Source of the DNA: a virus
Length of the DNA stretch: 37,419 nucleotides
Direction: 5' to 3' (one strand)
Virus genome (UHGV): UHGV-0125336
Below, one piece after another: positions 34,001-37,378 of this stretch. Under the pieces are notes generated by a model. It did no database searches. It was not told the origin of the DNA and saw only the letters and a list, made by a program, of their open reading frames with translations. The translations under genes were made by a program, and so were the position numbers. Numbering within the stretch: position 1 is the first letter of the stretch; each line of letters begins with the position of its first letter.

Positions 34001-34190
34001 CAGGCAGAATTGCCGGAGTAACAAAAAAGCGATAGATTACGCGCGGGTGCCTTTCGGCTGATGGTCGGAGGGAATACCCGAAGGCCAGATGTGGAAAGGC
34101 CCCGGAAAACATTTCTGTTTAACCGAGGCCCTAACCGTCTAACCTTAGCAAGTGATAGGTTAGCGCCTCCCTGAAAAAGGAGCAAGCGCT

Positions 34191-34331
34191 ATGTCGCAAA
34201 AATCGCTTACGGCCATCACGTTCTGCGTGACGGCAATCCTCATCATCTGGATGCTGCACGGTTCGCTGTGCGAAATACGGATGAGCTTCTGGGGAGCGGA
34301 GTTTGCGGCGTTCTTACAGTGTAAGCAGTAA
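34191..34331 (+). CDS. hok: Hok/Gef-family type I toxin (46 aa)
   Basis: MSQKSLTAITFCVTAILIIWMLHGSLCEIRMSFWGAEFAAFLQCKQ: one TM helix, then the SLCEI motif and an AAFL.CK C-terminus, closest to HokA as recalled. SD AAGGAG (34177-34182) sits in a hairpin. A GNRA-loop hairpin follows the stop (34341-34362). Confidence 0.7.
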   Translation: MSQKSLTAITFCVTAILIIWMLHGSLCEIRMSFWGAEFAAFLQCKQ

Positions 34332-34393: not shown

Positions 34394-34404
34394 CCCTATC
34401 TCAC
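34394..34404. repeat. Left target-site duplication (CCCTATCTCAC)
   Basis: Perfect 11-bp direct repeat of 35890..35900, immediately outside the left inverted repeat. Confidence 0.6.
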
Positions 34405-34545
34405 CAATGCCGTTCAGTTAGTTAAGGAATTGAGGTTCGATAGCCCGAACCTCGCGCAGAGGCAATATGACCGAAAGCCTGATTCCTTAATGCCCAAGAT
34501 GAGTCTCTATTCATAAAAGCGCTTAACTACTCGACATTGGCGGTG
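34405..34545. repeat. Left terminal inverted repeat (about 140 bp)
   Basis: Contains nested hairpins (TTAAGGAAT...ATTCCTTAA and GAGGTTCG-ATAGCC-CGAACCTC). Inverse match to 35750..35889. Confidence 0.6.
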
Positions 34546-34740
34546 TATCCCCCGCATTGTCTGAATGCCGCCTCTTACCTTTCGCGGTCAACTGACGACT
34601 TCTAGTTCTAGAACGCCTTGATTTTTTGTACTTGTACATTGAAAAATAACCATAAATTGTTAGCCTGTGCAGTAGACTCAGTGGCGGTAACTGGTCAGCA
34701 TGAAGTGTAAAGTGAATAACGAAGCTCTAAAATTATAGGG

Positions 34741-35574
34741 ATGGTCATGAATAATAAGCTAAAGGTAATTGAGTTAAATAGTCTTGATCTGTTTCGTAAA
34801 GAATTACTAACTACTATAAAGCCAGAGAAAGTAGAGAAATTACTTAGATGGTATCTTCAATCATATGGCGGTGTTAATTTCAAGTTCGGTTATGACAGAC
34901 CAATTTTTAGAGCGCGAAAGTGCCCAAATGAATGCGGATATAATAACATCAGTGAGATATATCCCCCTCCACCAGAAAAATGTAAAATAGGCCGAATGAA
35001 TGATGATGGACAAGCTATCTTCTATGGCGCTTATAGTATCGGAACAGCTTTAGCCGAAATTAATGCAAAAGAAGGGGATTATGTTCACATAGCTCACTTT
35101 AAGATGCCGGAAAATTCAGAGTCTGGAATGCGATGTTTTGCTATCGGTGAGGTCTTTAATGTGTATCACGGTGTAAATACAATTTCAATTGAAGTGTTTA
35201 ATGAAATTCGCGACATCATTAGCAGAATTGGTAAGGACGACATCCGAGCTTTGCTATCATATTTGTATATGGATGCCCTTTCTGCTGAGTTGCTTAATAG
35301 TATCAATGCCCATGAGGTAAATTATATTTACTCAAGAATTTTTTGCCGTCTTCTTCTTGATAAATACCCTGATGTTGATGGTCTTATTTATCCTAGCGCT
35401 AAAATAAAAGGGGCCTCAAATATCGCTTTGCGCACAGAAACAGTTAAATCGAGAATGCATTTAGTTGCTAATCTTGTGTTTAAAGTAAATAAAATTTATC
35501 CATATGGAATAGTAGATTTCAGTATAGTAAAACAAGCCAAAGGACATACATCAGATGGGCGCATCGTTTGGTGA
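34741..35574 (+). CDS. RES-domain-like protein (putative NAD+-targeting toxin fold) with an N-terminal extension
   Basis: KIGRMNDDGQAIFYGAYSIGTALAEI fits the RES pattern (G-R-W/M-N..G...Y.A.S...A..E), and DGLIYPSAKIKGASNIAL fits the second conserved block. No adjacent Xre/antitoxin-like ORF. AT-rich. Confidence 0.5.
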   Translation: MVMNNKLKVIELNSLDLFRKELLTTIKPEKVEKLLRWYLQSYGGVNFKFGYDRPIFRARKCPNECGYNNISEIYPPPPEKCKIGRMNDDGQAIFYGAYSIGTALAEINAKEGDYVHIAHFKMPENSESGMRCFAIGEVFNVYHGVNTISIEVFNEIRDIISRIGKDDIRALLSYLYMDALSAELLNSINAHEVNYIYSRIFCRLLLDKYPDVDGLIYPSAKIKGASNIALRTETVKSRMHLVANLVFKVNKIYPYGIVDFSIVKQAKGHTSDGRIVW

Positions 35575-35749
35575 GCCAAACTTTTAGTTAGCTGATTGAA
35601 AAACCGATGCGTCAGTTTGCACTGCATGTGGTGTATGGGAAGCGCGGGCTTGTAGTGCAGGTCATTTCAGAAGAAGCTAACGAGAAAGCTTAGACATACT
35701 GTGACTACTAAACAAGCAGAAAGCCCGTGTTTATGGGGGGCAATCCACA

Positions 35750-35889
35750 CAACAGGCGATGTCGATTAGTTAATACACTTGTATGAATAGAGACTCATTT
35801 TTGTGCATTAAGGAATCAGGCTTTCAGTCATCTTGCCTCTGCGCGAGGTTCGGGCTATCGAACCTCAATTCCTTAACTGAACTACATTG
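35750..35889. repeat. Right terminal inverted repeat (about 140 bp)
   Basis: Reverse complement aligns with 34405..34545, with a 4-bp indel and scattered mismatches. Confidence 0.6.
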
Positions 35890-35900
35890 CCCTATCTCAC
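35890..35900. repeat. Right target-site duplication (CCCTATCTCAC)
   Basis: Perfect 11-bp direct repeat of 34394..34404, immediately outside the right inverted repeat. Confidence 0.6.
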
Positions 35901-36087: not shown

Positions 36088-36420
36088 ATGGCATTAATCA
36101 AATGTCCTGAATGCCAGAAAGAGGTCAGCGATTCAGCATTATGTTGCCCTGCTTGTGGTAAACAACTGAAAAAACTTAAGCGTTCATTTTTTGGAAAACT
36201 CATTAAATGGGCTTTTATATTTTTTAATATTTTTATGATCTATACACTTTTAGTTGGACTAGGAGGCGCTGATGAAATAATAAACAATACCACATCCGAT
36301 GCCGAAAAAGCTGGGGCAGTTATTGGTACGGGCTTAGGTTTAATTGCCATTGGAGGCTTATGGGTTATTGGCGATATAATTATCGGAATTTTAGTGTTTC
36401 TTACTAAACCAAAGGGATAA
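36088..36420 (+). CDS. Zinc-ribbon membrane protein, unknown function
   Basis: N-terminal CPEC...CPAC zinc ribbon followed by two hydrophobic helices. AAGGAG RBS. AT-rich. Confidence 0.6.
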   Translation: MALIKCPECQKEVSDSALCCPACGKQLKKLKRSFFGKLIKWAFIFFNIFMIYTLLVGLGGADEIINNTTSDAEKAGAVIGTGLGLIAIGGLWVIGDIIIGILVFLTKPKG

Positions 36421-36424
36421 TAAA

Positions 36425-37318
36425 ATGAAAAATATGATTTTTTCTATAGGTGCATTATTTATATCAATTAGTGTACTGCCTGTTCACGCAGCAACTGAAC
36501 ATAAGAATTTCAATGCAGTGCTCCAGTGCCGAGCGATAGAAAACAATAAAGACAGACTTTCTTGTTACGATAAGTCAATACAACCGACTCGAACGAAAGT
36601 TGCTGAAAAATTTGAAAGCAGGGATCAATGCCCTGATGAGAAAGATGATGACAAACGTTTATCTTGTTATGATCGTTTTTTTTCTCCAACATTTACTCCA
36701 TCTGTAAACTCAAAATCTAAAACGGAAAAGCTAGTAACAACAGAGGCTCAGCAACCAAATCTTTCTGAAATATCTAAATGCCGAGCAGAAAATGATAAAG
36801 AAGCCAGACTAAACTGCTACGATAAACTATTCCCACAGAATGAAGCTGTTCAATCTGAATCACAATTAGAGAAAGCCACAGATGCAGGAAAATGGCACAC
36901 GTCCATTACTACATCGCCAATTGATGATTCGAAAAATGTAATTTTATCGTTAGAAAGTGATGATTATATCAGAACTCCATTTGGAGAAGCTGTTACTCCC
37001 ACTCTGTTTATAGCTTGCCGAGAAAAGAAAACCGAAGTATTTCTTAGTTGGGATGTATATTTAGGCCTTGAACAAACCAGCATGCTGTATCGTCTTGATA
37101 AACAGAAAGCAGTTGAAAGAAACTGGCTAATATCTACAGATACAAAGGCTGTTTTTTATAAAGGTAATGATATTGATTTCATAAGAAAACTTGCCAACTC
37201 ACATAAAATGTACACAAAAATAACCCCCTATAATGAAAGCCCTGTAAGTGCAACTTTCAATTTAAGCGGCCTGTCAAATGCACTAAAACCGCTTCAAGAT
37301 GCTTGTAACTGGAAATAG
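36425..37318 (+). CDS. Secreted protein with three 20-aa Cys-pair repeats, unknown function
   Basis: Signal-peptide-like N-terminus (MKNMIFSIGALFISISVLPVHAA). Repeats LQCRAIENNKDRLSCYDK, DQCPDEKDDDKRLSCYDR, SKCRAENDKEARLNCYDK. Starts 4 nt after the upstream gene. Confidence 0.6.
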   Translation: MKNMIFSIGALFISISVLPVHAATEHKNFNAVLQCRAIENNKDRLSCYDKSIQPTRTKVAEKFESRDQCPDEKDDDKRLSCYDRFFSPTFTPSVNSKSKTEKLVTTEAQQPNLSEISKCRAENDKEARLNCYDKLFPQNEAVQSESQLEKATDAGKWHTSITTSPIDDSKNVILSLESDDYIRTPFGEAVTPTLFIACREKKTEVFLSWDVYLGLEQTSMLYRLDKQKAVERNWLISTDTKAVFYKGNDIDFIRKLANSHKMYTKITPYNESPVSATFNLSGLSNALKPLQDACNWK

Positions 37319-37336
37319 TATATACCTCCCCAATAT

Positions 37337-37378
37337 CAGATGACAAAACGCCCGTGAAAACGGGCGTTTTGTCATCTG
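37337..37378. terminator. Perfect 18-bp-stem palindrome, candidate bidirectional terminator
   Basis: CAGATGACAAAACGCCCG-TGAAAA-CGGGCGTTTTGTCATCTG, with A/T runs inside both arms. Lies between the converging plus-strand operon and the minus-strand partial ORF. Confidence 0.55.

What the first reader, a model, noticed from the sequence alone, without database searches (positions are those of the whole stretch)
34394..35900. Transposon-like element with 130-bp inverted repeats and an 11-bp target duplication, carrying only a RES-like toxin gene
A perfect 11-bp direct repeat flanks a 1485-bp AT-rich insertion whose ends are long, structured inverted repeats. The single gene resembles a RES-domain NAD+-degrading toxin rather than a transposase, and no antitoxin gene is adjacent. 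This looks like a non-autonomous element moving a lone toxin cargo, inserted 63 bp downstream of a hok-like gene.
Basis: partly seen in the sequence, partly recalled or inferred. Interest (0 to 1): 0.7.

Follow-up and report, generated by a model that had tools for sequence, protein, structure and literature searches.

The report
IS4-ended cassette carrying RES toxin gene
A 1.5-kb transposon without its own transposase, with the end sequences of the IS4 insertion-sequence group, has inserted into a P2-like E. coli prophage carrying a stand-alone RES (NAD+-degrading) gene; it is real, of a known kind, and probably no longer mobile.

Summary
An 11-bp direct repeat (CCCTATCTCAC) abuts a 1485-bp insert (34405-35889) with ~135-bp inverted arms. 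Related prophages have the uninterrupted site with one copy of the 11-mer. The termini (CAATGCCGTTCAGTTAAGGA) are those of the IS4 subgroup of the IS4 family: they match E. coli IS4, K-12 ISZ and metagenomic IS4-family elements that encode Nterm_IS4+DDE transposases. That subgroup makes 10-13-bp duplications. Each arm also ends internally in a second, decayed IS4-type terminus. The element therefore looks like two inverted ~135-bp MITE-like units flanking cargo, a mobile insertion cassette or miniature composite transposon. The ORF is a RES-domain protein, not a transposase: Pfam 4e-12, fold matches to NatT and ParT, catalytic residues intact, dN/dS 0.04-0.19. It belongs to a 275-aa subfamily that is always solitary, with no Xre antitoxin. 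A 2.4-kb relative (L069) carries a second gene, and the window copy has deleted it, leaving a 72-nt remnant. The same cassette clade sits at three different sites, all in phage genomes. In E. coli it occupies one site in 66 of 5426 genomes, and both terminal repeats carry mutations, so this copy is probably a fossil. Novelty: a new member of a known kind.

The parts
34394..34404 (.). Left copy of the 11-bp target-site duplication CCCTATCTCAC
   Evidence: Perfect repeat. A single copy is present in the empty sites L002, L003 and L004.
34405..34539 (+). Left arm: a 135-bp MITE-like unit bounded by an outer and an inner IS4-type terminus
   Evidence: Inverted-repeat blocks. Matches the right arm at 120 of 137 aligned columns. 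RNA fold z-score -2.05.
34405..34428 (+). Outer left terminal repeat CAATGCCGTTCAGTTA[GTTA]AGGA, an IS4-subgroup terminus with a 4-bp internal duplication
   Evidence: Compared with IS4 IRL TAATGCCGATCAGTTAAGGA and with ISZ. The Enterobacter-type copies lack the GTTA insertion.
34520..34539 (-). Inner, decayed IS4-type terminus of the left arm (CAATGTCGAGTAGTTAAGCG on the minus strand)
   Evidence: 15/20 identical to the ISZ terminus. About 0.4 such matches are expected per shuffled 37-kb window. Homologous sites exist in L013 (16/20), L022 (15/20) and L069 (15/20).
34639..34666 (+). Candidate promoter of the RES gene: TTGAAA, 16 nt, TGtTAGCCT (extended -10)
   Evidence: These are the only blocks upstream of the gene that stay invariant in the alignment across genera. 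This is inference; the simple consensus scan did not call it.
34747..35574 (+). RES-domain gene (275 aa, WP_001060550.1, annotated 'RES family NAD+ phosphorylase')
   Evidence: Pfam PF08808 4.5e-12. PGAP annotation. The AF2 model matches the RES toxins NatT, ParT, VPA0770 and P. putida RES. R55, R57, GRMN82-85, Y93, E104 and S217 are invariant. dN/dS is 0.04-0.19.
35622..35693 (+). Remnant (last 23 codons plus stop) of a deleted second cargo gene. The deletion junction is near 35620/35621.
   Evidence: Window 34405-35620 aligns to L069 612-1835, and window 35621-35891 aligns to L069 2733-3010. The remnant reads LHVVYGKRGLVVQVISEEANEKA*, against LHVVCGECGHVVQVISEEEADEKA* in L069.
35757..35889 (-). 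Right arm: a 133-bp MITE-like unit, inverted copy of the left arm
   Evidence: RNA fold z-score -2.69. The inner terminus at 35757-35776 matches ISZ at 14/20.
35870..35889 (-). Outer right terminal repeat CAATGTAGTTCAGTTAAGGA (two substitutions relative to the group consensus)
   Evidence: 16/20 to IS4 IRL, 17/20 to ISZ and 18/20 to the group consensus.
35890..35900 (.). Right copy of the 11-bp target-site duplication

Best explanation
The feature is a non-autonomous DNA transposon of the IS4 subgroup of the IS4 family. Two inverted ~135-bp MITE-like arms carry IS4-type terminal repeats and flank captured cargo, so it is a mobile insertion cassette or miniature composite transposon. An IS4-subgroup DDE transposase supplied in trans would bind the outer termini (CAATGCCGTTCAGTTAAGGA), excise the segment, and insert it at a target cut with an 11-bp stagger. 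Repair of that stagger gives the CCCTATCTCAC duplication. The cargo is a stand-alone 275-aa RES-domain enzyme that brings its own conserved upstream region. Its most likely role is to degrade NAD+ and act as a phage-borne abortive-infection or exclusion gene rather than as half of a toxin-antitoxin pair. The ancestral cassette was 2.4 kb and carried a second gene, which the window copy lost through an internal deletion of about 0.9 kb. In E. coli the cassette is now most likely immobile and is inherited with the P88-like (Xuanwuvirus) prophage. Shown here: the insertion, the duplication, the family identity of the ends, the absence of a transposase, the RES fold and catalytic motif, purifying selection, the deletion, and three separate insertion sites. 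Inferred: which transposase acted, the composite origin of the arms, the enzyme's activity, and any defence role.
For: Insertion: empty sites hold one copy of the 11-mer.

Family of the ends:
- The termini fit the published IS4-subgroup end consensus -AATR--------WTW---- and its 10-13-bp direct repeats (PMC2266710, Table 1).
- The Enterobacter-type copy matches IS4 IRL at 18/20 by my reading, and ISZ at 19/20.
- The K-12 IS4 copy has a 12-bp duplication and ISZ a 10-bp one.
- The terminal 21-mer occurs in 42 metagenome loci. Their interiors fall into many unrelated groups.
- Six of those loci have a 421-441-aa ORF just inside the terminus. The three I scanned (L056, L028, L067) are Nterm_IS4+DDE_Tnp_1 transposases. 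L056 is 26% identical to InsG (E 2e-37). It is a complete 1576-bp IS with a 10-bp duplication.

Non-autonomy: the only long ORF is RES.

Arms: inner IS4-type termini are conserved in all copies.

Mobility in the past:
- The exact terminus CAATGCC abuts three unrelated flanks: after hok in an E. coli P88-like phage, after the ogr terminator in Enterobacter-type P2-like phages (L013, L014, L025, L069), and next to a baseplate gene in L022.
- RES homologues outside this clade have no such termini.

Cargo: the RES evidence is. No Xre or DUF2384 neighbour appears in any locus.

Deletion of the second gene.

Fossil status:
- 66 of 5426 E. coli genomes carry the element, each with exactly two arm copies.
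- All 30 listed full-length hits have the same hok-side and Zn-ribbon-side flanks.
- No copy was found on plasmids.
- Both outer termini differ from the consensus.
Against: - No cognate transposase or autonomous parent IS with these arms was found. A 20-mer from the arm gave only two chance hits in one genome per species. There were no solo arm copies in E. coli, plasmids or phages.
- The inner termini are weak (14-16/20), and arm similarity may run about 20 nt past them, so the 'two MITEs' reading is not secure.
- Whether IS4 InsG can act on these ends is untested. Full-length IS4 is present in 2480 of 5426 E. coli genomes.
- The E. coli target matches the YTAR-centred target pattern of the metagenomic relatives only loosely.
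- RES activity, toxicity and any defence function are untested. The protein has no PADLOC or PHROG family.
Confidence: 0.8

Rival explanations
1. It is a single IS4-group insertion sequence whose transposase gene was replaced by RES (a classical one-IS mobile insertion cassette). On this reading the long arms are simply long ends of the parent IS, not two MITE copies.
For: The size of 1485 bp falls within the IS4-subgroup range of 1400-1650 bp. The arms contain an RBS-like GGAGG followed by ATG in the Enterobacter-type copies, as an IS left end would. Arm similarity seems to continue about 20 nt beyond the inner termini.
Against: The left and right ends of IS4, ISZ and L056 are alike only over about 20 bp, not 135 bp. 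Both arms carry the same left-end-like interior and an inner inverted terminus. The ancestral form is 2.4 kb with two unrelated cargo genes.
Confidence: 0.15
2. It is a cassette moved by site-specific recombination, with the 11-bp repeat as an att-like core rather than a transposition duplication.
For: Direct repeats at the boundaries of an insert in a phage accessory region are also produced by integrases. The Enterobacter-type copies sit at one conserved, palindromic site, the ogr terminator.
Against: The 11-mer does not recur at the other insertion sites. The termini are IS4-type inverted repeats that start exactly at the repeat boundary. The element encodes no recombinase. An 11-bp repeat fits the 10-13 bp of the IS4 subgroup.
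Confidence: 0.03
3. The RES gene is the toxin of a degraded two-gene toxin-antitoxin or defence pair. The deleted downstream gene was its antitoxin or regulator, so the window copy is an orphan that must be silent or inactive.
For: RES is followed by the 292-aa gene in L069 and in L015-L018, outside the cassette. In Vibrio the same family precedes an ADP-ribosyltransferase toxin gene.
Against: The 292-aa family is much larger than the RES subfamily (at least 269 clusters against 45). It is solitary in the Pectobacterium and Pseudomonas islands, and in the Klebsiella island its only close neighbour is a convergently oriented reverse-transcriptase gene. RES lacks it in the Lelliottia, Citrobacter and E. 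coli ICE-like loci and in L013. RES stays intact, with motif residues conserved and dN/dS 0.12-0.19 between cassette copies with and without the partner. Stand-alone RES defence proteins are tolerated without an antitoxin (aRES preprint).
Confidence: 0.15

Closest known systems
IS4 (insG) and the ISZ remnant (insZ) of E. coli K-12; IS4 subgroup of the IS4 family (De Palmenaer et al. 2008, PMC2266710)
   Same: Terminal repeat sequence (CAATGCCGTTCAGTTAAGGA against TAATGCCGATCAGTTAAGGA and CAATGCCGATCAGTTAAGGA). Target duplication of 10-13 bp. Inferred cut-and-paste transposition by a DDE transposase.
   Different: No transposase gene. 135-bp inverted arms instead of terminal repeats of about 18-20 bp. 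Carries cargo.
Mobile insertion cassettes (MIC231 of Bacillus cereus with IS231 ends; the qnrD and qnrS2 cassettes), as cited in PMC2266710 and listed
   Same: IS-type ends flank passenger gene(s) with no transposase. A target duplication is present. Mobilisation must come in trans. MIC231 belongs to the same IS family.
   Different: Different subgroup (IS4, not IS231) and different host clade. The cargo is a RES enzyme. It resides in temperate phage genomes. Its arms look like whole MITE units.
Composite transposons bounded by MITEs, for example the TIME-bounded mosaic transposons (PMC4133298, abstract only). Tn10/Tn5-type composites of the IS4 family are a comparison from my own knowledge.
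   Same: Two inverted copies of a short IS-derived unit flank cargo, and the outer ends are used for transposition.
   Different: No solo copies of the arm unit were found anywhere. The inner termini are decayed, so the composite origin is inferred rather than shown.
aRES, stand-alone antiphage RES-domain proteins (Osterman et al. 2026 preprint, 10.64898/2026.01.28.702374)
   Same: A RES-domain protein with no operon partner, located in mobile or defence contexts of Enterobacterales. The expected chemistry is NAD+ breakdown to nicotinamide and ADPR-1''-phosphate.
   Different: aRES proteins are 300-600 aa and carry PF18870 as well as RES. This family is 275 aa, and PF18870 was not detected in any of 17 members. 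No defence assay exists for it.
RES-Xre type II toxin-antitoxin systems (MbcT-MbcA, PMC6436930; NatT-NatR, PMC11535050; ParT-ParS)
   Same: RES fold (Foldseek hits 8qnl, 6d0i, 9r35, 6gw6). Counterparts of MbcT R27, R47, Y58, E69 and S126 are conserved.
   Different: No Xre or DUF2384 antitoxin gene. The protein is about 100-120 aa longer, with an N-terminal helical hairpin and a three-helix insertion.

Membership tests
IS4 subgroup of the IS4 family (as an IS-derived element) | Terminal sequence fits -AATR--------WTW---- (PMC2266710, Table 1) | tested here: met
   CAATGCCGTTCAGTTA...: AATG at positions 2-5 and TTA at positions 14-16, on both ends.
IS4 subgroup of the IS4 family (as an IS-derived element) | Target-site duplication of 10-13 bp | tested here: met
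   An 11-bp duplication, with a single copy in empty sites.
IS4 subgroup of the IS4 family (as an IS-derived element) | Encodes a DDE transposase (Nterm_IS4 + DDE_Tnp_1, YREK motif) | tested here: not met
   The only long ORF is a RES-domain protein. The element is therefore IS4-derived and non-autonomous, not an IS.
Mobile insertion cassette (MIC) | IS-type terminal inverted repeats flank passenger gene(s), with no transposase and a flanking target duplication | tested here: met
Mobile insertion cassette (MIC) | Mobilised in trans by the cognate transposase | not testable with these tools
   Indirect support only: the same cassette clade sits at three different sites. Full-length IS4 is present in 46% of E. 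coli genomes.
MITE-bounded composite transposon | Each bounding unit has both terminal repeats of the parent IS | tested here: inconclusive
   Inner termini match at 14-16/20 and are conserved in position in all copies. Chance gives about 0.4 such matches per 37 kb. The matches are decayed, and arm similarity may extend past them.
MITE-bounded composite transposon | The bounding unit also exists as solo copies | tested here: not met
   None in 5426 E. coli genomes, in plasmids, in phages, or in one genome per species.
RES domain family (PF08808) | Profile match above the curated cut-off, with the R-E-S residues conserved | tested here: met
   46.7 bits against a cut-off of 23.2. R83 (in GRMN), E104 and S217 are invariant in 17 homologues. 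Fold matches to RES toxins.
RES-Xre type II toxin-antitoxin system | Adjacent Xre/DUF2384 antitoxin gene in an operon with RES | tested here: not met
   None in the window or in any homologous locus.
aRES antiphage system | Stand-alone RES protein not in an operon with a partner | tested here: met
aRES antiphage system | Length of 300-600 aa with both the RES and PF18870 domains (the preprint's operational definition) | tested here: not met
   275 aa. hmmscan finds no PF18870 in 17 of 17 members at E<=1. The preprint used HHsearch, which I could not run.
aRES antiphage system | Protects against phage by NAD+ depletion | not testable with these tools
   Needs plaque and NAD+ assays.

The most novel reading that the evidence does not exclude
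The cassette may be a phage-to-phage gene shuttle. On this reading, IS4-subgroup transposases resident in Enterobacterales chromosomes mobilise a MITE-bounded cassette that moves a short, stand-alone RES NADase between unrelated temperate phage genomes. All three known insertion sites are in phages. The RES protein would be a new single-gene abortive-infection system distinct from aRES. The widespread 292-aa Zn-ribbon gene that travels with it in some copies would be a second, undescribed defence-type module.
Probability: 0.25. Interest if true: 0.6.

Novelty: new member of a known kind. Interest (0 to 1): 0.4.

Why it matters
It gives a concrete, sequence-level example of how an accessory ('moron' or defence-type) gene enters a temperate phage genome: by transposition of a cassette that borrows an IS4-type transposase, not by illegitimate recombination. 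The empty site, the occupied site, a larger ancestral form, a one-ended form and a 71-bp scar are all available for comparison. It also flags a compact, always-solitary RES subfamily and a widespread 292-aa Zn-ribbon protein as candidates for testing in phage defence. For annotation, it shows that IS4-type termini can be used to find non-autonomous relatives that transposase-based IS finders miss.

Tried and rejected
- **Diverged transposase?** Rejected. The ORF matches Pfam RES, its fold matches RES toxins, and it has no DDE or Nterm_IS4 signal.
- **11-mer part of a longer host repeat?** Rejected by the empty sites.
- **Other copies of the arms.** None in E. coli beyond this locus and none on plasmids. 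Phages gave only Xuanwuvirus P88_4B11. A 20-mer scan of one genome per species gave two chance hits.
- **Weak 32-mer matches.** One scan listed 30 extra E. coli genomes with weak matches. I repeated it at E<=1 by mistake and lost them, so they remain unexamined.
- **Inverted repeats or IS4-type termini around RES homologues in other genera.** None.
- **Known RNA families in the region.** Only the sok-like hit.
- **Defence-system and phage-family libraries.** No hit for RES or for the second cargo.
- **PDB sequence searches for RES.** No hit, by sequence or by profile. Only the fold search worked.
- **Fold search for the 292-aa protein.** Nothing significant.
- **The 71-bp scar in complete E. 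coli genomes.** Absent.
- **Genes next to other metagenomic termini.** A mix of transposases and ordinary host genes, which says nothing about other cargo cassettes.
- **Right end in L013 and L025.** Absent. In L022 the contig ends at the RES stop codon, so the right end cannot be seen.
Full report
**1. The observation**

The window is a complete P2-like prophage of Escherichia coli. It runs from an integrase at 240-1259 to gpD, ogr, hok/sok and a short AT-rich accessory region at the right end. It is almost identical to the phage record Xuanwuvirus P88_4B11.

The reported feature is present exactly as described.
- CCCTATCTCAC occurs at 34394-34404 and at 35890-35900.
- Between the two copies lies a 1485-bp segment (34405-35889).
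- The ends of that segment are inverted repeats. The repeat consists of blocks of 78, 24 and 16 nt at 88-96% identity, broken by small indels. Over arms of 135 and 133 bp, 120 of 137 aligned columns match.

An 11-mer repeated once in 2.5 kb is not remarkable by itself. What makes it a target-site duplication is the empty site.
- I joined the two flanks into one 600-nt query. It matched as one contiguous place in 168 complete E. coli genomes.
- I aligned three of them, which lie at two different chromosomal positions. Each has a single CCCTATCTCAC with hok on one side and the Zn-ribbon gene on the other.

**2. What family the ends belong to**

- **E. coli IS4 and ISZ.** The termini read CAATGCCGTTCAGTTA(GTTA)AGGA on the left and CAATGTAGTTCAGTTAAGGA on the right. 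The IS4 copy of K-12 ends in TAATGCCGATCAGTTAAGGA and TAATGCCAGTCAGTTAAGCA and is flanked by a 12-bp duplication. The K-12 ISZ remnant ends in CAATGCCGATCAGTTAAGGA and CAATGCCGTTCACTTAAGAG with a 10-bp duplication.
- **Published family definition.** The revision of the IS4 family defines the IS4 subgroup by ends of the form -AATR--------WTW---- and direct repeats of 10-13 bp (PMC2266710). Both criteria are met here.
- **Metagenome scan.** A scan for the terminal 21-mer gave 42 loci. Nearly all begin (C)AATGCCGTTCAGTTAAGGAAT and then continue into several unrelated interiors.
- **Transposases at those termini.** Six loci have a 421-441-aa ORF just inside the terminus. The three I scanned carry Pfam Nterm_IS4 plus DDE_Tnp_1. 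One is 26% identical to IS4 InsG (E 2e-37).
- **Complete and miniature relatives.** L056 is a complete 1576-bp IS with a 10-bp duplication. L030 and L031 hold a 639-bp derivative without a transposase-sized ORF and with a degenerate 11-bp duplication.

The sequence at the ends of the window element is therefore the conserved transposase-recognition end of a broad IS4 subgroup. An 11-bp duplication is what that subgroup produces.

**3. Anatomy of the arms**

- Each arm ends, on its inner side, in a second IS4-type terminus in the opposite orientation. In the window these are at 34539 (minus strand, CAATGTCGAGTAGTTAAGCG, 15/20 to ISZ) and at 35757 (plus strand, 14/20). Homologous sites in L013, L022 and L069 score 16/20, 15/20 and 15/20. 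Shuffled windows give about 0.4 such matches per 37 kb.
- Each arm thus has the anatomy of a ~135-bp MITE. The whole element has the anatomy of a miniature composite transposon with inverted bounding units.
- The arms fold moderately better than shuffles (z about -2 to -2.7 in four of five arms). In four of the five predicted folds the terminal AAGGAAU segment pairs with a downstream AUUCCUU.
- In the Enterobacter-type arms a GGAGG followed by ATG lies inside this structure. This resembles the left end of an IS up to its transposase start codon. That last point is inference.
- I found no solo copies of the arm anywhere. The composite origin is therefore likely but not proven. The rival is a single IS with long ends whose transposase gene was replaced.

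**4. Evidence that it moved**

Relatives of the same cassette, with RES 89-91% identical, occur at other sites.
- In Enterobacter-type P2-like prophages (L013, L014, L025) the left terminus follows the ogr terminator directly...CCGCAAATGCGG|CAATGCC.
- In viral contig L022 the left terminus abuts a different sequence next to a baseplate gene of a different phage.
- L069 holds a complete 2397-bp version with both arms. It sits at the same ogr junction as L013 (96 of 108 flank positions identical). There, however, the right arm is next to ogr. This means either the interior was inverted between the arms or the element inserted a second time into the same palindromic target.
- RES homologues at 57-83% identity in Lelliottia, Citrobacter, an E. 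coli ICE-like region and elsewhere have no inverted repeats and no IS4-type termini. The capture of RES by these ends therefore defines one recent clade.

All three insertion sites lie in phage genomes.

**5. State of the E. coli copy**

- The arm sequence occurs in 66 of 5426 complete E. coli genomes, always exactly twice. All 30 listed full-length hits include the same hok-side and Zn-ribbon-side flanks.
- Both outer termini depart from the otherwise invariant consensus. The left has a GTTA duplication inside the repeat. The right has CC changed to TA.
- The two arms of one element are more alike (87.6% in E. coli, 81% in L069) than E. coli arms are to Enterobacter-type arms (73-78%). Both E. 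coli arms share an 11-nt deletion. This points to concerted evolution.
- One metagenome contig (L063) has the same site and the same duplication, but only a 71-bp remnant. The two termini are joined at the GAGGTTCG...CGAACCTC palindrome. No complete E. coli genome has this form.
- Full-length IS4 is present in 2480 of 5426 E. coli genomes. A related transposase is therefore often available, but nothing shows that it acts on these ends.

I conclude that the window copy is probably a fossil that now travels with the prophage.

**6. The cargo**

- **RES identity.** The ORF (34747-35574, 275 aa) matches Pfam RES at 4.5e-12 and is annotated by PGAP as a RES family NAD+ phosphorylase. An AlphaFold model (pLDDT 78.6) finds the RES toxins NatT, ParT, VPA0770 and P. 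putida RES as its best PDB matches.
- **Catalytic residues.** R55, R57, G82-R83-M84-N85, Y93, E104 and S217 are invariant in 17 homologues. I map them to MbcT R27, R47, Y58, E69 and S126, of which R27, R47 and Y58 are essential for toxicity (PMC6436930). The mapping comes from motif context, not from a structural superposition.
- **Selection.** dN/dS is 0.04-0.19 in all comparisons, including between cassette-borne copies.
- **No antitoxin.** No locus has an Xre or DUF2384 neighbour. The absence of an antitoxin is therefore a property of this subfamily.
- **Candidate promoter.** Homology with non-cassette relatives starts about 125 nt upstream of the start codon. The invariant upstream blocks are TTGAAA and TGtTAGCCT, 16 nt apart. 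I read them as an extended -10 promoter (inference).
- **Precedent.** A 2026 preprint shows that stand-alone RES proteins (aRES) defend E. coli against phages by converting NAD+ to ADPR-1''-phosphate. Those proteins are 300-600 aa with an extra PF18870 domain. This family lacks that domain in 17 of 17 members. It works like aRES at best and does not meet that definition.

**7. The lost second gene**

- Window 34405-35620 aligns to L069 612-1835, and window 35621-35891 aligns to L069 2733-3010. The 0.9 kb missing from the window encodes a 292-aa protein with a C-terminal CxxC...CxxC zinc ribbon. The window keeps only its last 23 codons and stop codon (35622-35693).
- That protein has no Pfam or PADLOC family and no significant fold match.
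- It belongs to a large, strongly conserved family of at least 269 clusters.
- It is solitary in the Pectobacterium and Pseudomonas islands. In the Klebsiella island its only close neighbour is a convergently oriented reverse-transcriptase gene. It follows RES only in L069 and L015-L018. In Vibrio it precedes an ADP-ribosyltransferase toxin gene.

I treat it as a second cargo gene. A role as a RES regulator is a minority possibility.

**8. Verdict**

The element is a non-autonomous IS4-subgroup cassette. That kind is known (mobile insertion cassettes and MITE-bounded composites), and the cargo type now has an experimental precedent. I rate it a new member of a known kind and of moderate interest. 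Its main value is as a well-documented case of a defence-type gene delivered into phage genomes by transposition.

Noticed in passing
L063:2960-3040 (metagenome contig OLNN01001643.1), homologous to window 34394-35900: Same insertion site and same 11-bp duplication, but the element is reduced to 71 bp. The two outer termini are joined at the GAGGTTCG..CGAACCTC palindrome. This is a deletion scar that looks like a tiny MITE. It is absent from all 5426 complete E. coli genomes.
   Followed up: yes
L069:1930-2808 (remnant at window 35622-35693); relatives in L015, L077, L081, L085 and L089: A 292-aa protein with a C-terminal zinc ribbon, 56-63% identical across distant Proteobacteria, in at least 269 clusters. 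It has no Pfam, PADLOC or PDB-fold match. It is solitary in the Pectobacterium and Pseudomonas integrative islands. It is next to a convergently oriented reverse-transcriptase gene in Klebsiella and next to an ADP-ribosyltransferase toxin gene in Vibrio. It may be an undescribed defence-type gene.
   Followed up: partly
L076:1927-2906 (E. coli K-12 ISZ, insZ pseudogene): The K-12 ISZ remnant has termini nearly identical to the cassette consensus (CAATGCCGATCAGTTAAGGA and CAATGCCGTTCACTTAAGAG) and a 10-bp duplication. A one-mismatch 22-mer match to the cassette terminus occurs in about 2000 E. coli genomes, and in the K-12 genomes I checked it falls at the ISZ locus.
   Followed up: partly
Metagenome loci L026-L067: IS4-subgroup elements share the invariant terminus CAATGCCGTTCAGTTAAGGAAT but have unrelated interiors. 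Their flanks show a YTAR motif at positions -7 to -4, which suggests a centred palindromic target. L030 and L031 carry a 639-bp derivative without a transposase.
   Followed up: partly
window 34045-34331: A hok/sok-type locus lies just upstream of the insertion. The hok ORF matches Pfam HOK_GEF (4e-7). The sok-like RNA scores 43.6 bits in Rfam, below the gathering score of 59.
   Followed up: no
window 36088-37318: Two AT-rich accessory genes sit at the prophage end: a zinc-ribbon membrane protein (phrog_6586) and a VasI/TagO-like protein (Pfam VasI 7e-26, below the NCBIfam cut-off). Both are part of the packaged P88-like phage genome.
   Followed up: no
window 37337-37378: An inverted repeat with 18-nt perfectly complementary arms and a 6-nt loop (AGATGACAAAACGCCCGTGAAAACGGGCGTTTTGTCATCT) lies directly after the VasI-like gene. 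It looks like a bidirectional terminator.
   Followed up: no
L068:20343-21169 (phage record LR595891, Xuanwuvirus P88_4B11): In the deposited phage genome the RES ORF is annotated as two CDSs, split near codon 74. This is either a frameshift or a sequencing error in that record.
   Followed up: no
L003:4422-5444 (E. coli strain 504211): A related prophage with the empty site carries an extra 340-aa gene between gpD and ogr. This is another variable accessory position in this phage group.
   Followed up: no
L013:4868-6226: In the Enterobacter cloacae prophage the cassette has lost its second gene and its right arm. In their place is unrelated DNA with a 225-aa coiled-coil-like ORF. The result is a one-ended remnant.
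   Followed up: partly
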